Assembly (NCBI RefSeq): GCF_016026235.1
Contig: NZ_CP065613.1
Direction: 5' to 3' (one strand)
Source of the DNA: Escherichia coli
GTDB lineage: Bacteria; Pseudomonadota; Gammaproteobacteria; Enterobacterales; Enterobacteriaceae
Length of the DNA: 64,000 bases
Translations under genes and position numbers: made by a program
Shown: one piece after another, positions 12,551 to 18,808 of the stretch
Numbering within the stretch: position 1 is the stretch's first letter
Layout of the letters: each line of letters begins with the position of its first letter
Notes under the pieces: generated by a model
What the model saw: only the letters and a program-made list of their open reading frames with translations
What the model was told of the DNA's origin: nothing
Database searches by the model: none

Positions 12551-12956
12551 TACCACCTCTTAAAAAAATGCCCACATAGTGTAGTGCGGAGCGCATGTTG
12601 GGTAAACAGAGTGTTAATGAGAAAATATTACAGAGGAGAATAATTTGTGTGTCAGGTATGTTTTTTGCATTCATAAAATGAATGCTCTATATGTTGAAAA
12701 AATGAATTTTAAAGCTAAATAGTTTTACATCAAAAAAATAATAATATCATTTCTTGATTACCATGTGCATTTTTTATCTTACGAATATGCTAGTTTTATC
12801 TTACTAAATAAACGATTTGGTGACATGGATGATAATGTTTCAGGCTAAATGTGTGCTTATTACTTGGGCCTTTATGGCACTGTATTTATTCATTAAATGG
12901 ATGTTTGGTGGTTAATTATTATGGAAATATATGACAGTGAGGACATAAAGGTATAA

Positions 12957-13892
12957 ATGTTAACTAAAAGAATATTATTTTCTTTAATGCTAATAGTTTC
13001 ACCAGGCGTGGTGGCAAGCGAGAAAGCGCATGAATTGTATGACAGCATATACGGTGGTAAACCTGCTCCCGATGTTATAAATACACTGCATAAAATGGCT
13101 GAATCGGGAGATATCGACGCGCAGAGCCTGTTAGGCTGGGAATATTATCAGCCTCGCTATGATACCAAACCTGATGTTCAGGAAGCGATTAAATGGTTCG
13201 AGTTAGCCGCTAAACAAGGTGACAGAGAAGCTCCGTTAGCGCTGGGGAGTATCTACTACGACGGTGAGCAGGTGCGGGTGGATTATGCCAAAGCGTATGC
13301 ACTATTTAATCAGGCCGCGCAATACGGTGTGAATTTAGCATGGTCCAGGTTGGGCATGATGTACGCCAATGGTCAGTATGTTGAGGTAGATTGTAAGAAA
13401 GCGAAGGAATATCTTGATAAAGGTGTCCACATTTATGGTGGCCCGGAAGACTTTCTGGCTACTTGTCGAAAAGACATGATTGACAGAAAAACGGTTGAGG
13501 ATATGTTACCCGTGATCACGGTTACCCGTTCTGGGATGCGGGATAATTTTTTAGATAAAGGTTTTTCCTGCATGGATAGCCACTTCGCCACCACCAATAA
13601 ATTAGGCGAAGTGGCCAATCTTCGCGTGACATTCAGCATTCGTCGCCCATCCGGTAAGGAGATTAACCAAACGGTTGGCTTCGCGCCTTTCGGTTTAAAC
13701 CGGCTGAATATTAGCTTTACTGATTACCTATTTGGTTCATTTACCAGTAATTCGTCTCTTATTCTTTATAAACCGGAATTTGAGCGAAAATCTTGTGCAA
13801 CTGTAAGGACCACAATCGTTGCCGCAACGGCAACCATTAACGGCAAGGATGTGGAGTTGCTGAAAGCGGGGGCAATTGAACAAAAGTGGTAA
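12957..13892 (+). CDS. secreted Sel1-like repeat (SLR/TPR-like) protein with unassigned C-terminal domain
   Basis: 311-aa ORF; N-terminal signal peptide MLTKRILFSLMLIVSPGVVAS; repeated AxxWFxxAAxQG/YANG motifs; SD AAGG upstream; sits in an insert absent from K-12 (memory). Confidence 0.75.
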   Translation: MLTKRILFSLMLIVSPGVVASEKAHELYDSIYGGKPAPDVINTLHKMAESGDIDAQSLLGWEYYQPRYDTKPDVQEAIKWFELAAKQGDREAPLALGSIYYDGEQVRVDYAKAYALFNQAAQYGVNLAWSRLGMMYANGQYVEVDCKKAKEYLDKGVHIYGGPEDFLATCRKDMIDRKTVEDMLPVITVTRSGMRDNFLDKGFSCMDSHFATTNKLGEVANLRVTFSIRRPSGKEINQTVGFAPFGLNRLNISFTDYLFGSFTSNSSLILYKPEFERKSCATVRTTIVAATATINGKDVELLKAGAIEQKW

Positions 13893-13947
13893 CGCTACTC
13901 AGCCCCCGGCTGAGGCAAGACTTGCCCTGGCGGGTGGCGATAATAAT

Positions 13948-14490
13948 CTAAGCCGCGAGAATATGCTGAATCGCCAAAAACATAGGTACAGCACCAAAAG
14001 CATTTGGTGTCGCTGAAAGCTGAACAAAGCCGAGACGAGCATAAAAGTTAATGGCGGCAGGGTCAGCATCAAGATAAACCCCTTTAATTGGTAATGCCTG
14101 GTGAATTATTTTTACATGTTCAAAAAAATCACATAGTAGGTCCTGACCAAAGCCCCGCTTTTGATACTTCCGCGCTATCCCCAACATGACTAATCTGACA
14201 ACACCAATTTCTGAAGGTTGTGAACCCTGAAGGACGCCAGAAACGCGTTGTTTTTCCAGCGAATATGCCGTAAAAGTACAGATGCCAATCAGTTCACCAC
14301 TTTGTCTGTCAATAAGTGCTTTAGCCGCACAGTCGCTATTACGCACACTTTTCTTTAGCGATGCGCGTACAAATTTATCGATAACAGGGTTACCGCAATC
14401 AAACTGTTTTTGCCCAGGATAAGTAATATCAGACTGATAATTACAGGAGAGGACTATGGGCAGAGTAATCTCTTCATGCTTGTCGACCAT
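13948..14490 (-). CDS. GNAT-family acetyltransferase toxin (TacT/ItaT/KacT-like type II toxin)
   Basis: 180-aa ORF with GNAT acetyl-CoA motif (RKYQKRGFGQDLL); overlaps upstream antitoxin stop by 17 nt. Confidence 0.8.
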   Translation of the reverse strand: MVDKHEEITLPIVLSCNYQSDITYPGQKQFDCGNPVIDKFVRASLKKSVRNSDCAAKALIDRQSGELIGICTFTAYSLEKQRVSGVLQGSQPSEIGVVRLVMLGIARKYQKRGFGQDLLCDFFEHVKIIHQALPIKGVYLDADPAAINFYARLGFVQLSATPNAFGAVPMFLAIQHILAA

Positions 14491-14785
14491 CGCTGTTTTT
14501 CCTTTTCATTAACGCCTTGAGGGCGAGCGTCGGTTGAGCAGGTTCAGCGATGAGTTGGTTCATCAGTTCCCAGCTTTGATTCGAAAGCTCACGGCGACGT
14601 TGGTTATCAAGCACACTTTCGGCGCGTTCCATAGCAGCGCTCAAAATAAAAGCGCTTAAATCTACCCCAACGGCTTGCGCAGCTTCACGAAGTTTGTTTT
14701 TGGCGTCGGGACTAGTTTTGAGTTCGACCCGCGCATTTTTCAGCGTTTTATCGACATCGTGTAGAGTGGCTGTTTTTCCAGGCAT
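14474..14785 (-). CDS. DUF1778 (RHH-type) antitoxin partner of the GNAT toxin
   Basis: Met at 14785 with SD AGAGG; about 103 aa; precedes and overlaps the toxin gene; the ORF extension to 14851 is likely artefactual. Confidence 0.75.
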   Translation of the reverse strand: MPGKTATLHDVDKTLKNARVELKTSPDAKNKLREAAQAVGVDLSAFILSAAMERAESVLDNQRRRELSNQSWELMNQLIAEPAQPTLALKALMKRKNSDGRQA

Positions 14786-14838
14786 TATGACCTCTTTGAT
14801 TAACTGAATGAAATCGTAGGGAGTCGATCTCATACATA

Positions 14839-14916
14839 ATACGGCTATCAACCGTATGATTAATTTATGTGCATCTGCTCACTCTGTCAAGAGATACGGT
14901 TATTAGCCGTATCTCT
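14839..14916. promoter_or_regulatory. two palindromic operator-like sites (ATACGG-N7-CCGTAT) upstream of the antitoxin gene
   Basis: 14839..14857 ATACGGctatcaaCCGTAT; 14890..14916 AGAGATACGGttattagCCGTATCTCT (10-bp perfect arms). Confidence 0.45.
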
Positions 14917-14926
14917 GATCTCAGAC

Positions 14927-14954
14927 AATAAAAAAGGTGCCGTAGCACCTTTTT
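14927..14954 (-). terminator. putative intrinsic terminator downstream of cyoE
   Basis: hairpin AAAAAGGTGC-cgta-GCACCTTTTT; on the minus strand it is followed by a U-run. Confidence 0.5.
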
Positions 14955-14969
14955 AATAGAGAGGTTTTG

Positions 14970-15860
14970 TTACCACACAGCAGCCAGCAGCGTATGCGAG
15001 TCCGGCACCATAAAATCAACGGACATCATCACCGAGAGGGCAGTGATGGCGATGATAGAGAAGCCGAACAGCTTGCGCGCCCAGATTCTGTCATCAGCAA
15101 CTTTATAACCGCGCAGAGCCATACCTAACCACCAGACGCTAACCGCCGCGGCGACCACCAGATATTTATACCCAGCGTAACCGCCAAGAGAGAGCATCAG
15201 CGTGGCAACGGCAAAGGCGATGATATACAGCGTGATGTGATTCTTCGCCACCGAAATGCCTTTTACCACTGGCAATACCGGAATGTTTGCCGCTTGGTAA
15301 TCCTTAAAGCGGAAAATGGCGATGGCATAGGAGTGAGGCATCTGCCACAGGCTGAAGATAGCCAGCAGGATCGCTGCGCCGCTATCGAACTCGCCGGTTA
15401 CTGCACAGTAGCCAATCACCGGCGGCGCAGCGCCGGAGAGCGAACCAATCAATGTGCCGTAGACTGAGTGGCGTTTCATGTACAGGCTATAAACGCCGAC
15501 ATAAACCACAAAGCCCATCACCCCCAGCCAGCAGGCCAGCGGATTCGCGCCAAACCACAGCAGCATAAAGCCAGCAATACCCAGCAAGGTGGCGTACACC
15601 AGCGAGACAGCAGGAGAGATCAGGCCTTTAACCAGCACCCGATTCTTCGTCCTTTCCATCTTTCTGTCGATATCCCTGTCGATGTAGTTGTTAAACACAC
15701 AACCCGACGCCACAACCAGTGACACCCCAACCAGCGTGTAGATAAACAGGGGATAATCAATGCTGCCCTTTGAGGCCAGCAGGAATCCCCCAATCACCGA
15801 GATCAGGTTGCCAAAGATGATGCCTGGTTTCGTTACTTGCAGGTATTGCTTAAACATCAT
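14970..15860 (-). CDS. cyoE: heme O synthase (protoheme IX farnesyltransferase)
   Basis: ORF 14970..15905; Met at 15860 gives [22 protein letters not shown]. Confidence 0.9.
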
Positions 15861-15871
15861 AACCGCCGCTC

Positions 15872-18808
<2,937 letters not shown>

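What the first reader, a model, noticed from the sequence alone, without database searches (positions are those of the whole stretch)
14839..14916. Twin palindromic operators with identical half-sites upstream of the antitoxin
Two inverted repeats share the same half-site and 7-bp spacing: ATACGG-ctatcaa-CCGTAT (14839..14857) and AGAGATACGG-ttattag-CCGTATCTCT (14890..14916, 10-bp perfect arms). They lie 54-130 bp upstream of the antitoxin start, where the promoter is expected. This is the arrangement expected for cooperative autorepression by an RHH antitoxin or the toxin-antitoxin complex. The distal site could instead be a junction scar of the insert.
Basis: seen in the sequence. Interest (0 to 1): 0.5.

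Follow-up and report, generated by a model that had tools for sequence, protein, structure and literature searches.

The report
Twin ItaR–ItaT operators bracketing the promoter
The two palindromes are real and are almost certainly the binding sites through which the known E. coli ItaR–ItaT toxin–antitoxin complex shuts off its own promoter, one on each side of it; this is a tidy but expected piece of regulation.

Summary
TACGG-N7-CCGTA occurs twice in 64 kb, both times here, against 0.01 expected by chance.

The genes downstream on the minus strand are the published toxin–antitoxin pair itaR/itaT. They lie in a 2.3-kb island between yajR and cyoE that about a quarter of complete E. coli genomes carry.

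The half-site (A/G)TACGG with a 7-bp spacer matches the operator in the KacA–KacT/DNA crystal structure, where one toxin–antitoxin4–toxin hexamer covers one palindrome. ItaR keeps the base-reading residues (R19/E21/K23, equivalent to KacA R8/D10/R12).

In 13 ItaRT loci from about 10 genera, and in 47 distinct metagenomic promoters, the layout is the same: palindrome, 4–5 nt, TTGAC, a spacer of 16–18 nt (usually 17), TAnnnT, 3–12 nt, palindrome. In the 13-locus alignment only these elements are invariant.

So the distal site abuts the −35 and the proximal site covers the predicted transcription start. The distal site is part of the module, not an insertion scar.

Published reporter data show that ItaR plus ItaT, but not ItaR alone, represses this upstream region. 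No binding experiment has been done on these sites.

kacAT, ataRT and one Salmonella homologue have only the proximal site. Salmonella TacAT has two sites by gel shift.

Cooperativity between the two sites is untested, and their spacing (54–62 bp, continuous) is not helically phased. The finding is ordinary: an unmapped operator pair of a known system.

The parts
14890..14916 (-). Distal operator. The core TACGG-N7-CCGTA is 14895..14911; the extended 10-bp arms span 14890..14916. It ends 4 nt upstream of the −35, and the extended arm shares its last T with TTGACA.
   Evidence: The core is invariant in 13 twin loci. The same core is in the KacAT crystal DNA.
14885..14890 (-). Predicted −35 hexamer TTGACA.
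   Evidence: Consensus scan, 10 of 12 matches. TTGAC is invariant at this position in 13 loci.
14862..14867 (-). Predicted −10 hexamer TAAATT, after a 17-nt spacer.
   Evidence: TAnnnT is conserved at 17 nt in all 13 loci, while the spacer sequence is not conserved. The −10 was also found, without being imposed by the search pattern, in the metagenomic promoters.
14839..14857 (-). Proximal operator ATACGG-N7-CCGTAT (core 14840..14856). It begins 4 nt downstream of the −10 (5 nt to the TACGG core) and covers the predicted transcription start at about 14855-14857.
   Evidence: The single palindromes of kacAT and ataRT sit in the same position. The transcription start is inferred, not mapped.
14791..14797 (-). 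Shine-Dalgarno sequence AAAGAGG of itaR.
   Evidence: Read from the sequence.
14474..14785 (-). itaR, a 103-aa DUF1778/TacA-family ribbon-helix-helix antitoxin. Its predicted DNA-reading strand is ARVELK (R19, E21, K23).
   Evidence: Pfam TacA1, E = 1e-17. KacA chain of PDB 5ZGN, E = 4e-11, with the alignment. The strand is invariant in 22 homologues.
13948..14490 (-). itaT, a 180-aa GNAT acetyltransferase toxin. It overlaps itaR by 17 nt.
   Evidence: 178 of 180 residues match PDB 7BYY, which is ItaT(G115D) of E. coli HS.
14931..14954 (-). Intrinsic terminator of cyoE. It belongs to the core genome. The island junction lies at about 14929/14930, just inside it.
   Evidence: Homology with island-free genomes starts here.

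Best explanation
The two palindromes are the operators of the itaRT promoter.

By homology with the KacA–KacT and AtaR–AtaT DNA complexes, one ItaT–ItaR2–ItaR2–ItaT hexamer binds each palindrome. One ribbon-helix-helix dimer inserts its beta-sheet (R19, E21, K23) into the major groove at each (A/G)TACGG half-site. The toxin holds the two dimers at the 12-bp centre-to-centre distance, which is why ItaR alone does not repress.

The sigma-70 promoter lies between the sites: TTGACA at 14890..14885, a 17-nt spacer, TAAATT at 14867..14862. The proximal hexamer covers the start site and blocks open-complex formation. The distal hexamer sits 4 nt upstream of the −35, where it would hinder sigma region 4 and alpha-CTD contacts. 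Together they clamp the core promoter and give tight autorepression. Derepression would follow when ItaR is degraded or the toxin-to-antitoxin ratio rises.

What is shown here: the sequence features, their conservation, and the protein homology. What is shown in the literature: the upstream region has promoter activity and is repressed only by ItaR plus ItaT. What is inferred: the stoichiometry, the exact contacts, the transcription start, the role of each site, and whether the cloned published fragment corresponds to 14796..14968 (its primers were not available to me).

I think direct, face-specific contact between the two bound complexes is unlikely, because the spacing varies continuously.
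For: Identity of the system: Pfam TacA1 and GNAT domains; ItaT matches 7BYY at 178 of 180 residues; ItaR aligns with the KacA chain of the DNA complex 5ZGN, R19/E21/K23 onto R8/D10/R12 (residues from PMC6698736).

Same operator grammar: the KacAT crystal DNA is AAATGTACGGTTATTAACCGTACATGA, and all base contacts fall within GTACGG.

Chance: 2 matches against 0.01 expected.

Phylogenetic footprint: in 13 loci from about 10 genera, with ItaR 62-88% and ItaT 67-90% identical, the only invariant columns are the two palindrome cores, TTGAC and TA...T. The flanking genes are unrelated in at least 11 contexts.

Wider distribution: 47 distinct metagenomic promoters have the same layout, most of them upstream of a distant DUF1778+GNAT clade.

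Protein–DNA covariation: with an R-x-D-x-R reading head the base 5' of TACGG is G in 118 of 122 half-sites; with R-x-E-x-K it is A in 71 and G in 40 of 112. In KacA, R12 contacts exactly that base.

Experiment: the 172-bp upstream region gives about 40-fold promoter activity and is repressed to background by ItaR+ItaT but not by ItaR alone (PMC6125619).
Against: No binding or footprint data exist for these sites, and the transcription start is unmapped.

The single-sequence promoter scan is not significant on its own: 1 site found against 0.8 expected.

The distal site is dispensable in some relatives. Xenorhabdus and Superficieibacter ItaRT loci, kacAT, ataRT and a Salmonella homologue have one site.

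Spacing between the sites is 54-62 bp, with modes at 57 and 60, which is not an integral number of helical turns. This argues against a fixed contact between the two complexes.

Strain 702/18 carries a substitution in the proximal core (ACACGG), so the site tolerates some change.
Confidence: 0.85

Rival explanations
1. Only the proximal palindrome is a working operator. The distal one is a non-functional relic: a junction scar of the island, or a decaying duplicate.
For: It lies about 13 bp from the island junction. It survives alone in O157:H7 strain TR01 after loss of the island. The characterised relatives manage with one site.
Against: Its core is invariant and sits 4-5 nt from the −35 in 13 genomic loci and 47 metagenomic promoters, while all surrounding bases have diverged. 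It occurs in at least 11 unrelated genomic contexts. A neutral relic would not stay perfect at 62-88% protein identity.
Confidence: 0.05
2. The palindromes act mainly as nucleic-acid hairpins rather than protein sites. The distal one would insulate itaRT from read-through out of cyoABCDE. The proximal one would form a 5'-terminal stem-loop that stabilises the itaRT mRNA.
For: Both fold as RNA: −15.2 kcal/mol (z = −5.6) and −7.6 kcal/mol (z = −3.4). The proximal site would sit at the extreme 5' end of the transcript. The distal flanks beyond the core are self-complementary, with different sequences in different genera (31 of 65 positions against 17 of 65 at the proximal site).
Against: Any palindrome folds. 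The core never shows compensatory changes; it is invariant, as expected for sequence-specific protein reading. There is no U-tract after the distal stem. No Rfam family matches. The same core is seen bound by protein in a crystal. The base next to it covaries with the protein. A secondary RNA role for the proximal stem is not excluded.
Confidence: 0.05
3. The two sites are bound by one higher-order ItaR–ItaT assembly that bridges or wraps the core promoter. On this view there is true inter-site cooperativity, instead of two independent hexamers.
For: GNAT toxins of this family are active as dimers, and each hexamer ends in toxin monomers (review PMC8138530). The gap between the two 27-bp footprints is about 28-35 bp. 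Twin sites are widespread. Salmonella TacAT gives one-site and two-site shifts on its promoter (PMC5449658).
Against: The spacing varies continuously from 54 to 62 bp without helical periodicity. No structural or binding data exist for ItaRT.
Confidence: 0.15

Closest known systems
kacAT operator of Klebsiella pneumoniae (KacT–KacA4–KacT bound to 27-bp DNA, PDB 5ZGN; PMC6698736)
   Same: DUF1778 ribbon-helix-helix antitoxin plus GNAT toxin. Palindrome TGTACGG-N7-CCGTACA with the same TACGG core and the same 7-bp spacer. The reading residues R8/D10/R12 align with ItaR R19/E21/K23. The site lies just downstream of the −10 and spans the start site, like the proximal site here.
   Different: kacAT has a single palindrome, with none upstream of its −35. 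ItaR is only about 35-40% identical to KacA and has about 11 extra N-terminal residues. ItaT is 26-28% identical to KacT-type toxins. The base 5' of TACGG is G there and mostly A here.
ataRT operator of E. coli O157:H7 (AtaT–AtaR4–AtaT on DNA; Jurenas et al. 2019, cited in PMC6698736 and PMC8138530)
   Same: Same family and the same palindrome, ATGTACGG-N7-CCGTACAT. The toxin is needed to orient the antitoxin dimers for high-affinity binding.
   Different: There is one full palindrome, plus one extra half-site 5 nt downstream, and no distal site. I could not read the primary paper.
tacAT promoter of Salmonella enterica (VanDrisse et al. 2017, PMC5449658)
   Same: Two binding sites within 75 bp upstream of the start codon (−81..−46 and −46..−6), each bound once. 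Binding and repression need the toxin–antitoxin complex, not TacA alone. This is the closest precedent for a two-site layout in a GNAT/DUF1778 module.
   Different: The site sequences are not given in the text I could read, and I did not retrieve that locus. Whether it has the same palindrome/−35/−10/palindrome geometry is therefore unknown.
itaRT autoregulation as published (Wilcox et al. 2018, PMC6125619)
   Same: This is the same locus: between cyoE and the Sel1-repeat gene, with a near-identical toxin. A 172-bp upstream fragment carries the promoter and is repressed by ItaR+ItaT.
   Different: The words operator, palindrome, footprint and EMSA do not occur in that paper. As far as I could find, the sites themselves were not mapped.

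Membership tests
DUF1778(TacA)/GNAT type II toxin–antitoxin module (ItaRT) | Upstream gene encodes a DUF1778/TacA ribbon-helix-helix antitoxin | tested here: met
   Pfam PF08681 TacA1, E = 1.1e-17. KacA and AtaR chains in the PDB, E = 4e-11 and 9e-9.
DUF1778(TacA)/GNAT type II toxin–antitoxin module (ItaRT) | Downstream, overlapping gene encodes a GNAT acetyltransferase toxin; specifically ItaT | tested here: met
   GNAT Pfam domains. 178 of 180 residues identical to PDB 7BYY, ItaT(G115D) of E. coli HS. The genes overlap by 17 nt.
KacAT/AtaRT-type operator | Palindrome with TACGG half-sites separated by 7 bp | tested here: met
   Both sites match exactly. The reference sequence comes from PMC6698736 and from the native kacAT and ataRT promoters.
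KacAT/AtaRT-type operator | Antitoxin beta-strand carries the base-reading residues (KacA R8, D10, R12) | tested here: met
   ItaR R19, E21 and K23 align with them. The substitutions D to E and R to K are conservative. They are invariant in 22 ItaR homologues. The K/R difference goes with A versus G at the contacted base.
KacAT/AtaRT-type operator | Site overlaps the core promoter or the transcription start | tested here: inconclusive
   The predicted −35/−10 lies between the sites and is conserved in position in 13 loci. The start site has not been mapped experimentally.
KacAT/AtaRT-type operator | Bound by a toxin–antitoxin4–toxin heterohexamer, one per palindrome | not testable with these tools
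   Only indirect evidence: repression needs both ItaR and ItaT (PMC6125619).
KacAT/AtaRT-type operator | Single operator per promoter, as in the characterised members | tested here: not met
   There are two sites here and in 12 further ItaRT loci, against one each in kacAT, a KacA-88% family, ataRT and a Salmonella homologue. Salmonella TacAT has two sites by EMSA, so this is not a strict family character.
Intrinsic terminator / structured RNA | GC-rich stem followed by a U-tract, or a match to a curated RNA family | tested here: not met
   There is no U-tract after the distal stem on the transcribed strand. No Rfam match at E <= 1 in 12500..15100. The only real terminator is that of cyoE, at 14931..14954.

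The most novel reading that the evidence does not exclude
The two operator-bound hexamers are linked across the −35/−10 region by dimerisation of their inward-facing ItaT monomers. The promoter would then be closed by a toxin-bridged double hexamer. The toxin-to-antitoxin ratio would be sensed through formation or loss of this bridge. That would be a mechanism of conditional cooperativity not available to the single-operator systems (KacAT, AtaRT) on which current models rest. The wide occurrence of the twin layout in DUF1778/GNAT modules would make it the common mode.
Probability: 0.12. Interest if true: 0.55.

Novelty: new member of a known kind. Interest (0 to 1): 0.3.

Why it matters
It gives base-level positions for the operators and promoter of itaRT. 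This toxin–antitoxin system is carried by about a quarter of sequenced E. coli genomes, including strain W and a T7 Express expression strain. It has been studied for tRNA acetylation, but I found no mapping of its cis-elements.

It also shows that the palindrome/−35/−10/palindrome layout is common across DUF1778–GNAT modules, whereas the structural models come from single-site promoters. That gives a concrete and cheap system for asking what a second operator adds to ratio-dependent autoregulation. Beyond that it changes nothing fundamental.

Tried and rejected
Junction-scar idea for the distal site: rejected by conservation across unrelated contexts.

Terminator or structured-RNA idea: no U-tract, no Rfam hit, and no compensatory change in the core.

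Direct repeat GATCTCA(T/G)ACA at 14826-14836 and 14917-14927: my own estimate is that a 10-of-11 match is expected about 0.4 times in 300 bp. It is not conserved in relatives, so I treat it as chance.

Helical phasing of the two sites: looked for and not found. Spacing is 54-62 bp and continuous.

Attempts that failed: reading Jurenas et al. 2019 (not held); finding the primer sequences of the published reporter fragment (supplements not held); finding the Salmonella tacAT3 paper.

The 10 metagenomic L043-type hits match the search pattern but have no toxin–antitoxin genes downstream. I excluded them from the interpretation.

Full report
**The observation.** Reading 14400..15800 and the repeat finder confirm both palindromes at the stated coordinates. 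The proximal one is ATACGG-ctatcaa-CCGTAT at 14839..14857. The distal one is AGAGATACGG-ttattag-CCGTATCTCT at 14890..14916. The shared core TACGG-N7-CCGTA occurs exactly twice in the 64-kb window, both times here. Dinucleotide-preserving shuffles give a mean of 0.01, and none of 100 reaches two matches. With one mismatch allowed the pattern is no longer rare (1.08 expected), so the signal rests on the exact matches.

**The surroundings.** The window is E. coli. cyoE (14970..15905), cyoD, cyoC and cyoB lie to the right, and yajR (11186..12556) lies to the left, all on the minus strand. Between yajR and cyoE sits an island of about 2.3 kb with three genes:
- a Sel1-repeat protein gene (12957..13892, plus strand);
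- a 180-aa GNAT protein gene (13948..14490, minus strand);
- a 103-aa DUF1778/TacA-family protein gene (ATG at 14785, stop at 14474..14476, minus strand).

The GNAT protein matches PDB 7BYY at 178 of 180 residues. 7BYY is ItaT(G115D) of E. coli HS (PMC7367177), so one of the two differences is the engineered mutation. The pair is therefore the published itaR/itaT module.

The island is present in 1367 of 5426 complete E. coli genomes. In island-free genomes, homology resumes at window position 14927-14930, which is the start of the cyoE terminator hairpin at 14931..14954. The distal palindrome thus lies about 13 bp inside the island.

**The promoter.** On the minus strand the consensus scan finds a single sigma-70-like site: TTGACA (14890..14885), 17 nt, TAAATT (14867..14862). 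On its own this is not significant, since 0.8 such sites are expected. It gains weight from comparison with other genomes, described next.

**The comparison with other genomes.**
- ItaR homologues were collected and aligned. The strand KNARVELKTS is nearly invariant among them (N17 and L22 each vary in one sequence).
- The alignment was used to fetch 24 loci from reference genomes. Twenty-one of the 24 have an ItaT homologue (56-90% identical) immediately downstream, and in the 12 twin-site loci it is 67-90% identical.
- With the window locus this gives 22 enterobacterial loci, of which 13 carry two exact TACGG-N7-CCGTA sites. The start-to-start spacings are 55, 56, 57, 57, 54, 57, 57, 58, 57, 55, 60, 57 and 57 bp.
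- In the alignment of these 13 promoters the invariant columns are the distal core, TTGAC, TA...T of the −10, and the proximal core. TTGAC starts 4-5 nt after the distal core. The −10 follows a 17-nt spacer whose sequence is not conserved. The proximal core begins 4-10 nt after the −10. Every other column varies.
- The DNA upstream of the distal site is unrelated between loci, apart from two pairs: the window with Pseudocitrobacter, and Rahnella victoriana with R. laticis. That gives at least 11 independent contexts.

This is a clean phylogenetic footprint. The promoter is where the scan put it, and both palindromes belong to the mobile toxin–antitoxin module. The predicted transcription start, about 7 nt after the −10, falls on the first bases of the proximal palindrome (about 14855-14857). 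This is an inference.

**The link to solved structures.** ItaR aligns with KacA, the antitoxin chain of the DNA complex 5ZGN, at E = 4e-11. The DNA crystallised with KacA–KacT is AAATGTACGGTTATTAACCGTACATGA. One KacT–KacA2–KacA2–KacT hexamer covers it, with one ribbon-helix-helix dimer per arm. All base contacts (R8, D10, R12) fall within GTACGG (PMC6698736). ItaR has R19, E21 and K23 at those positions. The distal site in the window, GATACGGTTATTAGCCGTATC, shares the stretch TACGGTTATTA and the opposite arm CCGTA with that DNA.

**Protein–DNA covariation.** I tabulated the base immediately 5' of TACGG against the antitoxin's reading head, across all loci fetched. With R-x-D-x-R the base is G in 118 of 122 half-sites. 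With R-x-E-x-K it is A in 71 and G in 40 of 112. In KacA, R12 contacts that very base. The counts are not phylogenetically independent, but the direction is what direct reading by the antitoxin predicts.

**Published experiments on this locus.** Wilcox et al. 2018 (PMC6125619) cloned the 172-bp region upstream of itaRT in front of galK. It gave about 40-fold activity over a promoterless control. Co-expression of ItaR with ItaT, whether active or inactive, reduced it almost to background, whereas ItaR alone had no effect. The words operator, palindrome, EMSA and footprint do not occur in that paper. If its coordinates (−183 to −11) are counted from the start codon, the fragment is 14796..14968. 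That would be the whole cyoE–itaR intergenic region up to the ribosome-binding site, and it would contain both palindromes. This is my inference, because the primer table was not available.

**Single and double sites elsewhere.**
- Native promoters of kacAT (L027, L028), of an 88%-identical KacA family (L029-L031), of E. coli ataRT (L035) and of a Salmonella homologue (L036, L037) each have one TACGG-N7-CCGTA just after the −10 and none before the −35.
- Among ItaRT loci, Xenorhabdus and Superficieibacter also have one site. The Superficieibacter locus keeps a degraded right half of the distal site in front of its −35.
- Salmonella TacAT shows two complex-dependent binding sites within 75 bp by gel shift (PMC5449658).
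- A scan of metagenome contigs for the twin layout returned 65 loci and 47 distinct promoters. Roughly 35 loci lie upstream of a distant clade made of an 89-aa DUF1778 antitoxin (MATARFDMRLD...) and a 177-aa GNAT toxin. ItaR does not detect these antitoxins by tblastn. In these promoters a TAnnnT hexamer again sits 16-18 nt after the −35, although the search pattern did not demand it.

The two-site layout is therefore common in this superfamily and is not peculiar to E. coli.

**Mechanism.** The best-supported reading is that one ItaT–ItaR4–ItaT hexamer binds each palindrome. The proximal complex occludes the start site. The distal one sits directly against the −35. Repression needs the toxin because the toxin sets the geometry of the two antitoxin dimers.

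Whether the two complexes help each other is open. The spacing is 54-60 bp in genomes and 54-62 bp in metagenomes, continuous, with modes at 57 and 60. That is not what a fixed, face-specific contact would produce. A flexible bridge through toxin dimerisation is not excluded, and it is the most novel reading left.

**Variation within E. coli.** The 145-bp promoter region matches in 1369 genomes, of which 1339 are 95-99% identical and 30 are at least 99% identical. The common allele sampled (strain W) has two changes. One lies in the non-conserved −35/−10 spacer. The other turns the distal arm into CCGTATgTCT. The 6-bp half-site is the unit that is kept. Strain 702/18 has ACACGG in the proximal site.

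**Rivals.**
- A junction scar is excluded by the conservation described above.
- A hairpin function cannot be excluded for the proximal site as a 5'-terminal mRNA stem. As the main role it is unlikely: the core is invariant rather than covarying, no U-tract follows, no Rfam family matches, and the same sequence is seen bound by protein in a crystal.

**One oddity remains.** Beyond the core, the flanks of the distal site are self-complementary far more often than those of the proximal site (31 of 65 positions against 17 of 65), and the sequences differ between genera. Template-switch correction of quasi-palindromes, acting where the left flank is unconstrained, is one possible explanation. Selection for a longer symmetric site is another. 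I could not decide between them.

**Verdict.** The operator pair belongs to a known toxin–antitoxin system and uses a known operator grammar. The two-site geometry is shared widely but is absent from the crystallised relatives. Interest is modest.

Noticed in passing
L032 3001-3038 (E. coli O157:H7 strain TR01, NZ_CP033605.1 516774-516811): The island (Sel1 gene plus itaRT) is absent, but the distal palindrome core (…AGAGATACGGCTAATAACCGTATC) remains as a solo remnant next to the cyoE terminator. It is joined to the island-type yajR-proximal flank. This is the only such case among 5426 genomes and looks like a deletion with a 2-3-nt microhomology.
   Followed up: partly
window 14890-14916 compared with L033 (E. 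coli W): The common E. coli allele sampled has CCGTATgTCT in the distal right arm and one more change in the −35/−10 spacer. The perfect 10-bp arms of the window are a minority allele: 30 genomes at 99% or more, against 1339 at 95-99%.
   Followed up: yes
Distal operators of the window, L004, L005, L009, L010, L014, L015 and L022: The bases flanking the TACGG…CCGTA core are self-complementary, with different sequences in different genera (AGAGA/TCTCT, TCGGA/TCCGA, AATGG/CCATT, GTTGA/TCAAC). This happens much more often than at proximal sites. The cause is unknown: quasi-palindrome template switching, or selection.
   Followed up: partly
L004 1242-1468, L005 1245-1468, L012 1306-1495: Three ItaRT loci have leaders of 190-280 nt between the proximal operator and itaR. 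Each contains a tiny ORF (MKFTANVFNLNRFRCIF, MRNQSKALNFSRFIKLS, MSLKKIQNLNNFKGIPFTGKR) with a loosely shared N-L/F-N/S-x-F motif. This may be a leader peptide.
   Followed up: no
L040, L041, L044, L045, L047, L048, L057-L059, L071, L073, L077, L078, L085, L087, L091, L092, L096 and others (metagenome contigs): A large environmental clade pairs an 89-aa DUF1778 antitoxin (MATARFDMRLD…) with a 177-aa GNAT toxin. It carries the same twin layout, GTACGGAA-NNN-TCCGTAC around TTGACA-17-TAnnnT.
   Followed up: partly
L043, L046, L050, L055, L066, L076, L079, L086, L098, L102: Ten near-identical metagenomic stretches match the twin-operator pattern but are rich in reiterated TACGG/CCGTA and have no toxin–antitoxin ORFs downstream. 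Their nature is unknown.
   Followed up: no
L035 457-490 (E. coli ataRT promoter): ataRT has one full palindrome, ATGTACGG-N7-CCGTACAT, followed after 5 nt by a lone extra half-site, TATACGG, just before the ribosome-binding site.
   Followed up: no
window 12957-13892 (+) and L003: A Sel1/TPR-repeat protein with a signal-peptide-like N-terminus lies convergent with itaT and is part of the same island. Pseudocitrobacter has the same island next to cyoE (Sel1 59% and ItaT 90% identical).
   Followed up: partly
window 12557-12620 compared with L001 1393-1500: The yajR-proximal part of the intergenic region is only about 70% identical between island-bearing and island-free E. coli. The replaced segment is therefore larger than the three genes.
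   Followed up: no
window 14826-14836 and 14917-14927: A direct repeat, GATCTCATACA / GATCTCAGACA, flanks the two-operator region on the outside. It is not conserved in relatives and is probably chance.
   Followed up: yes
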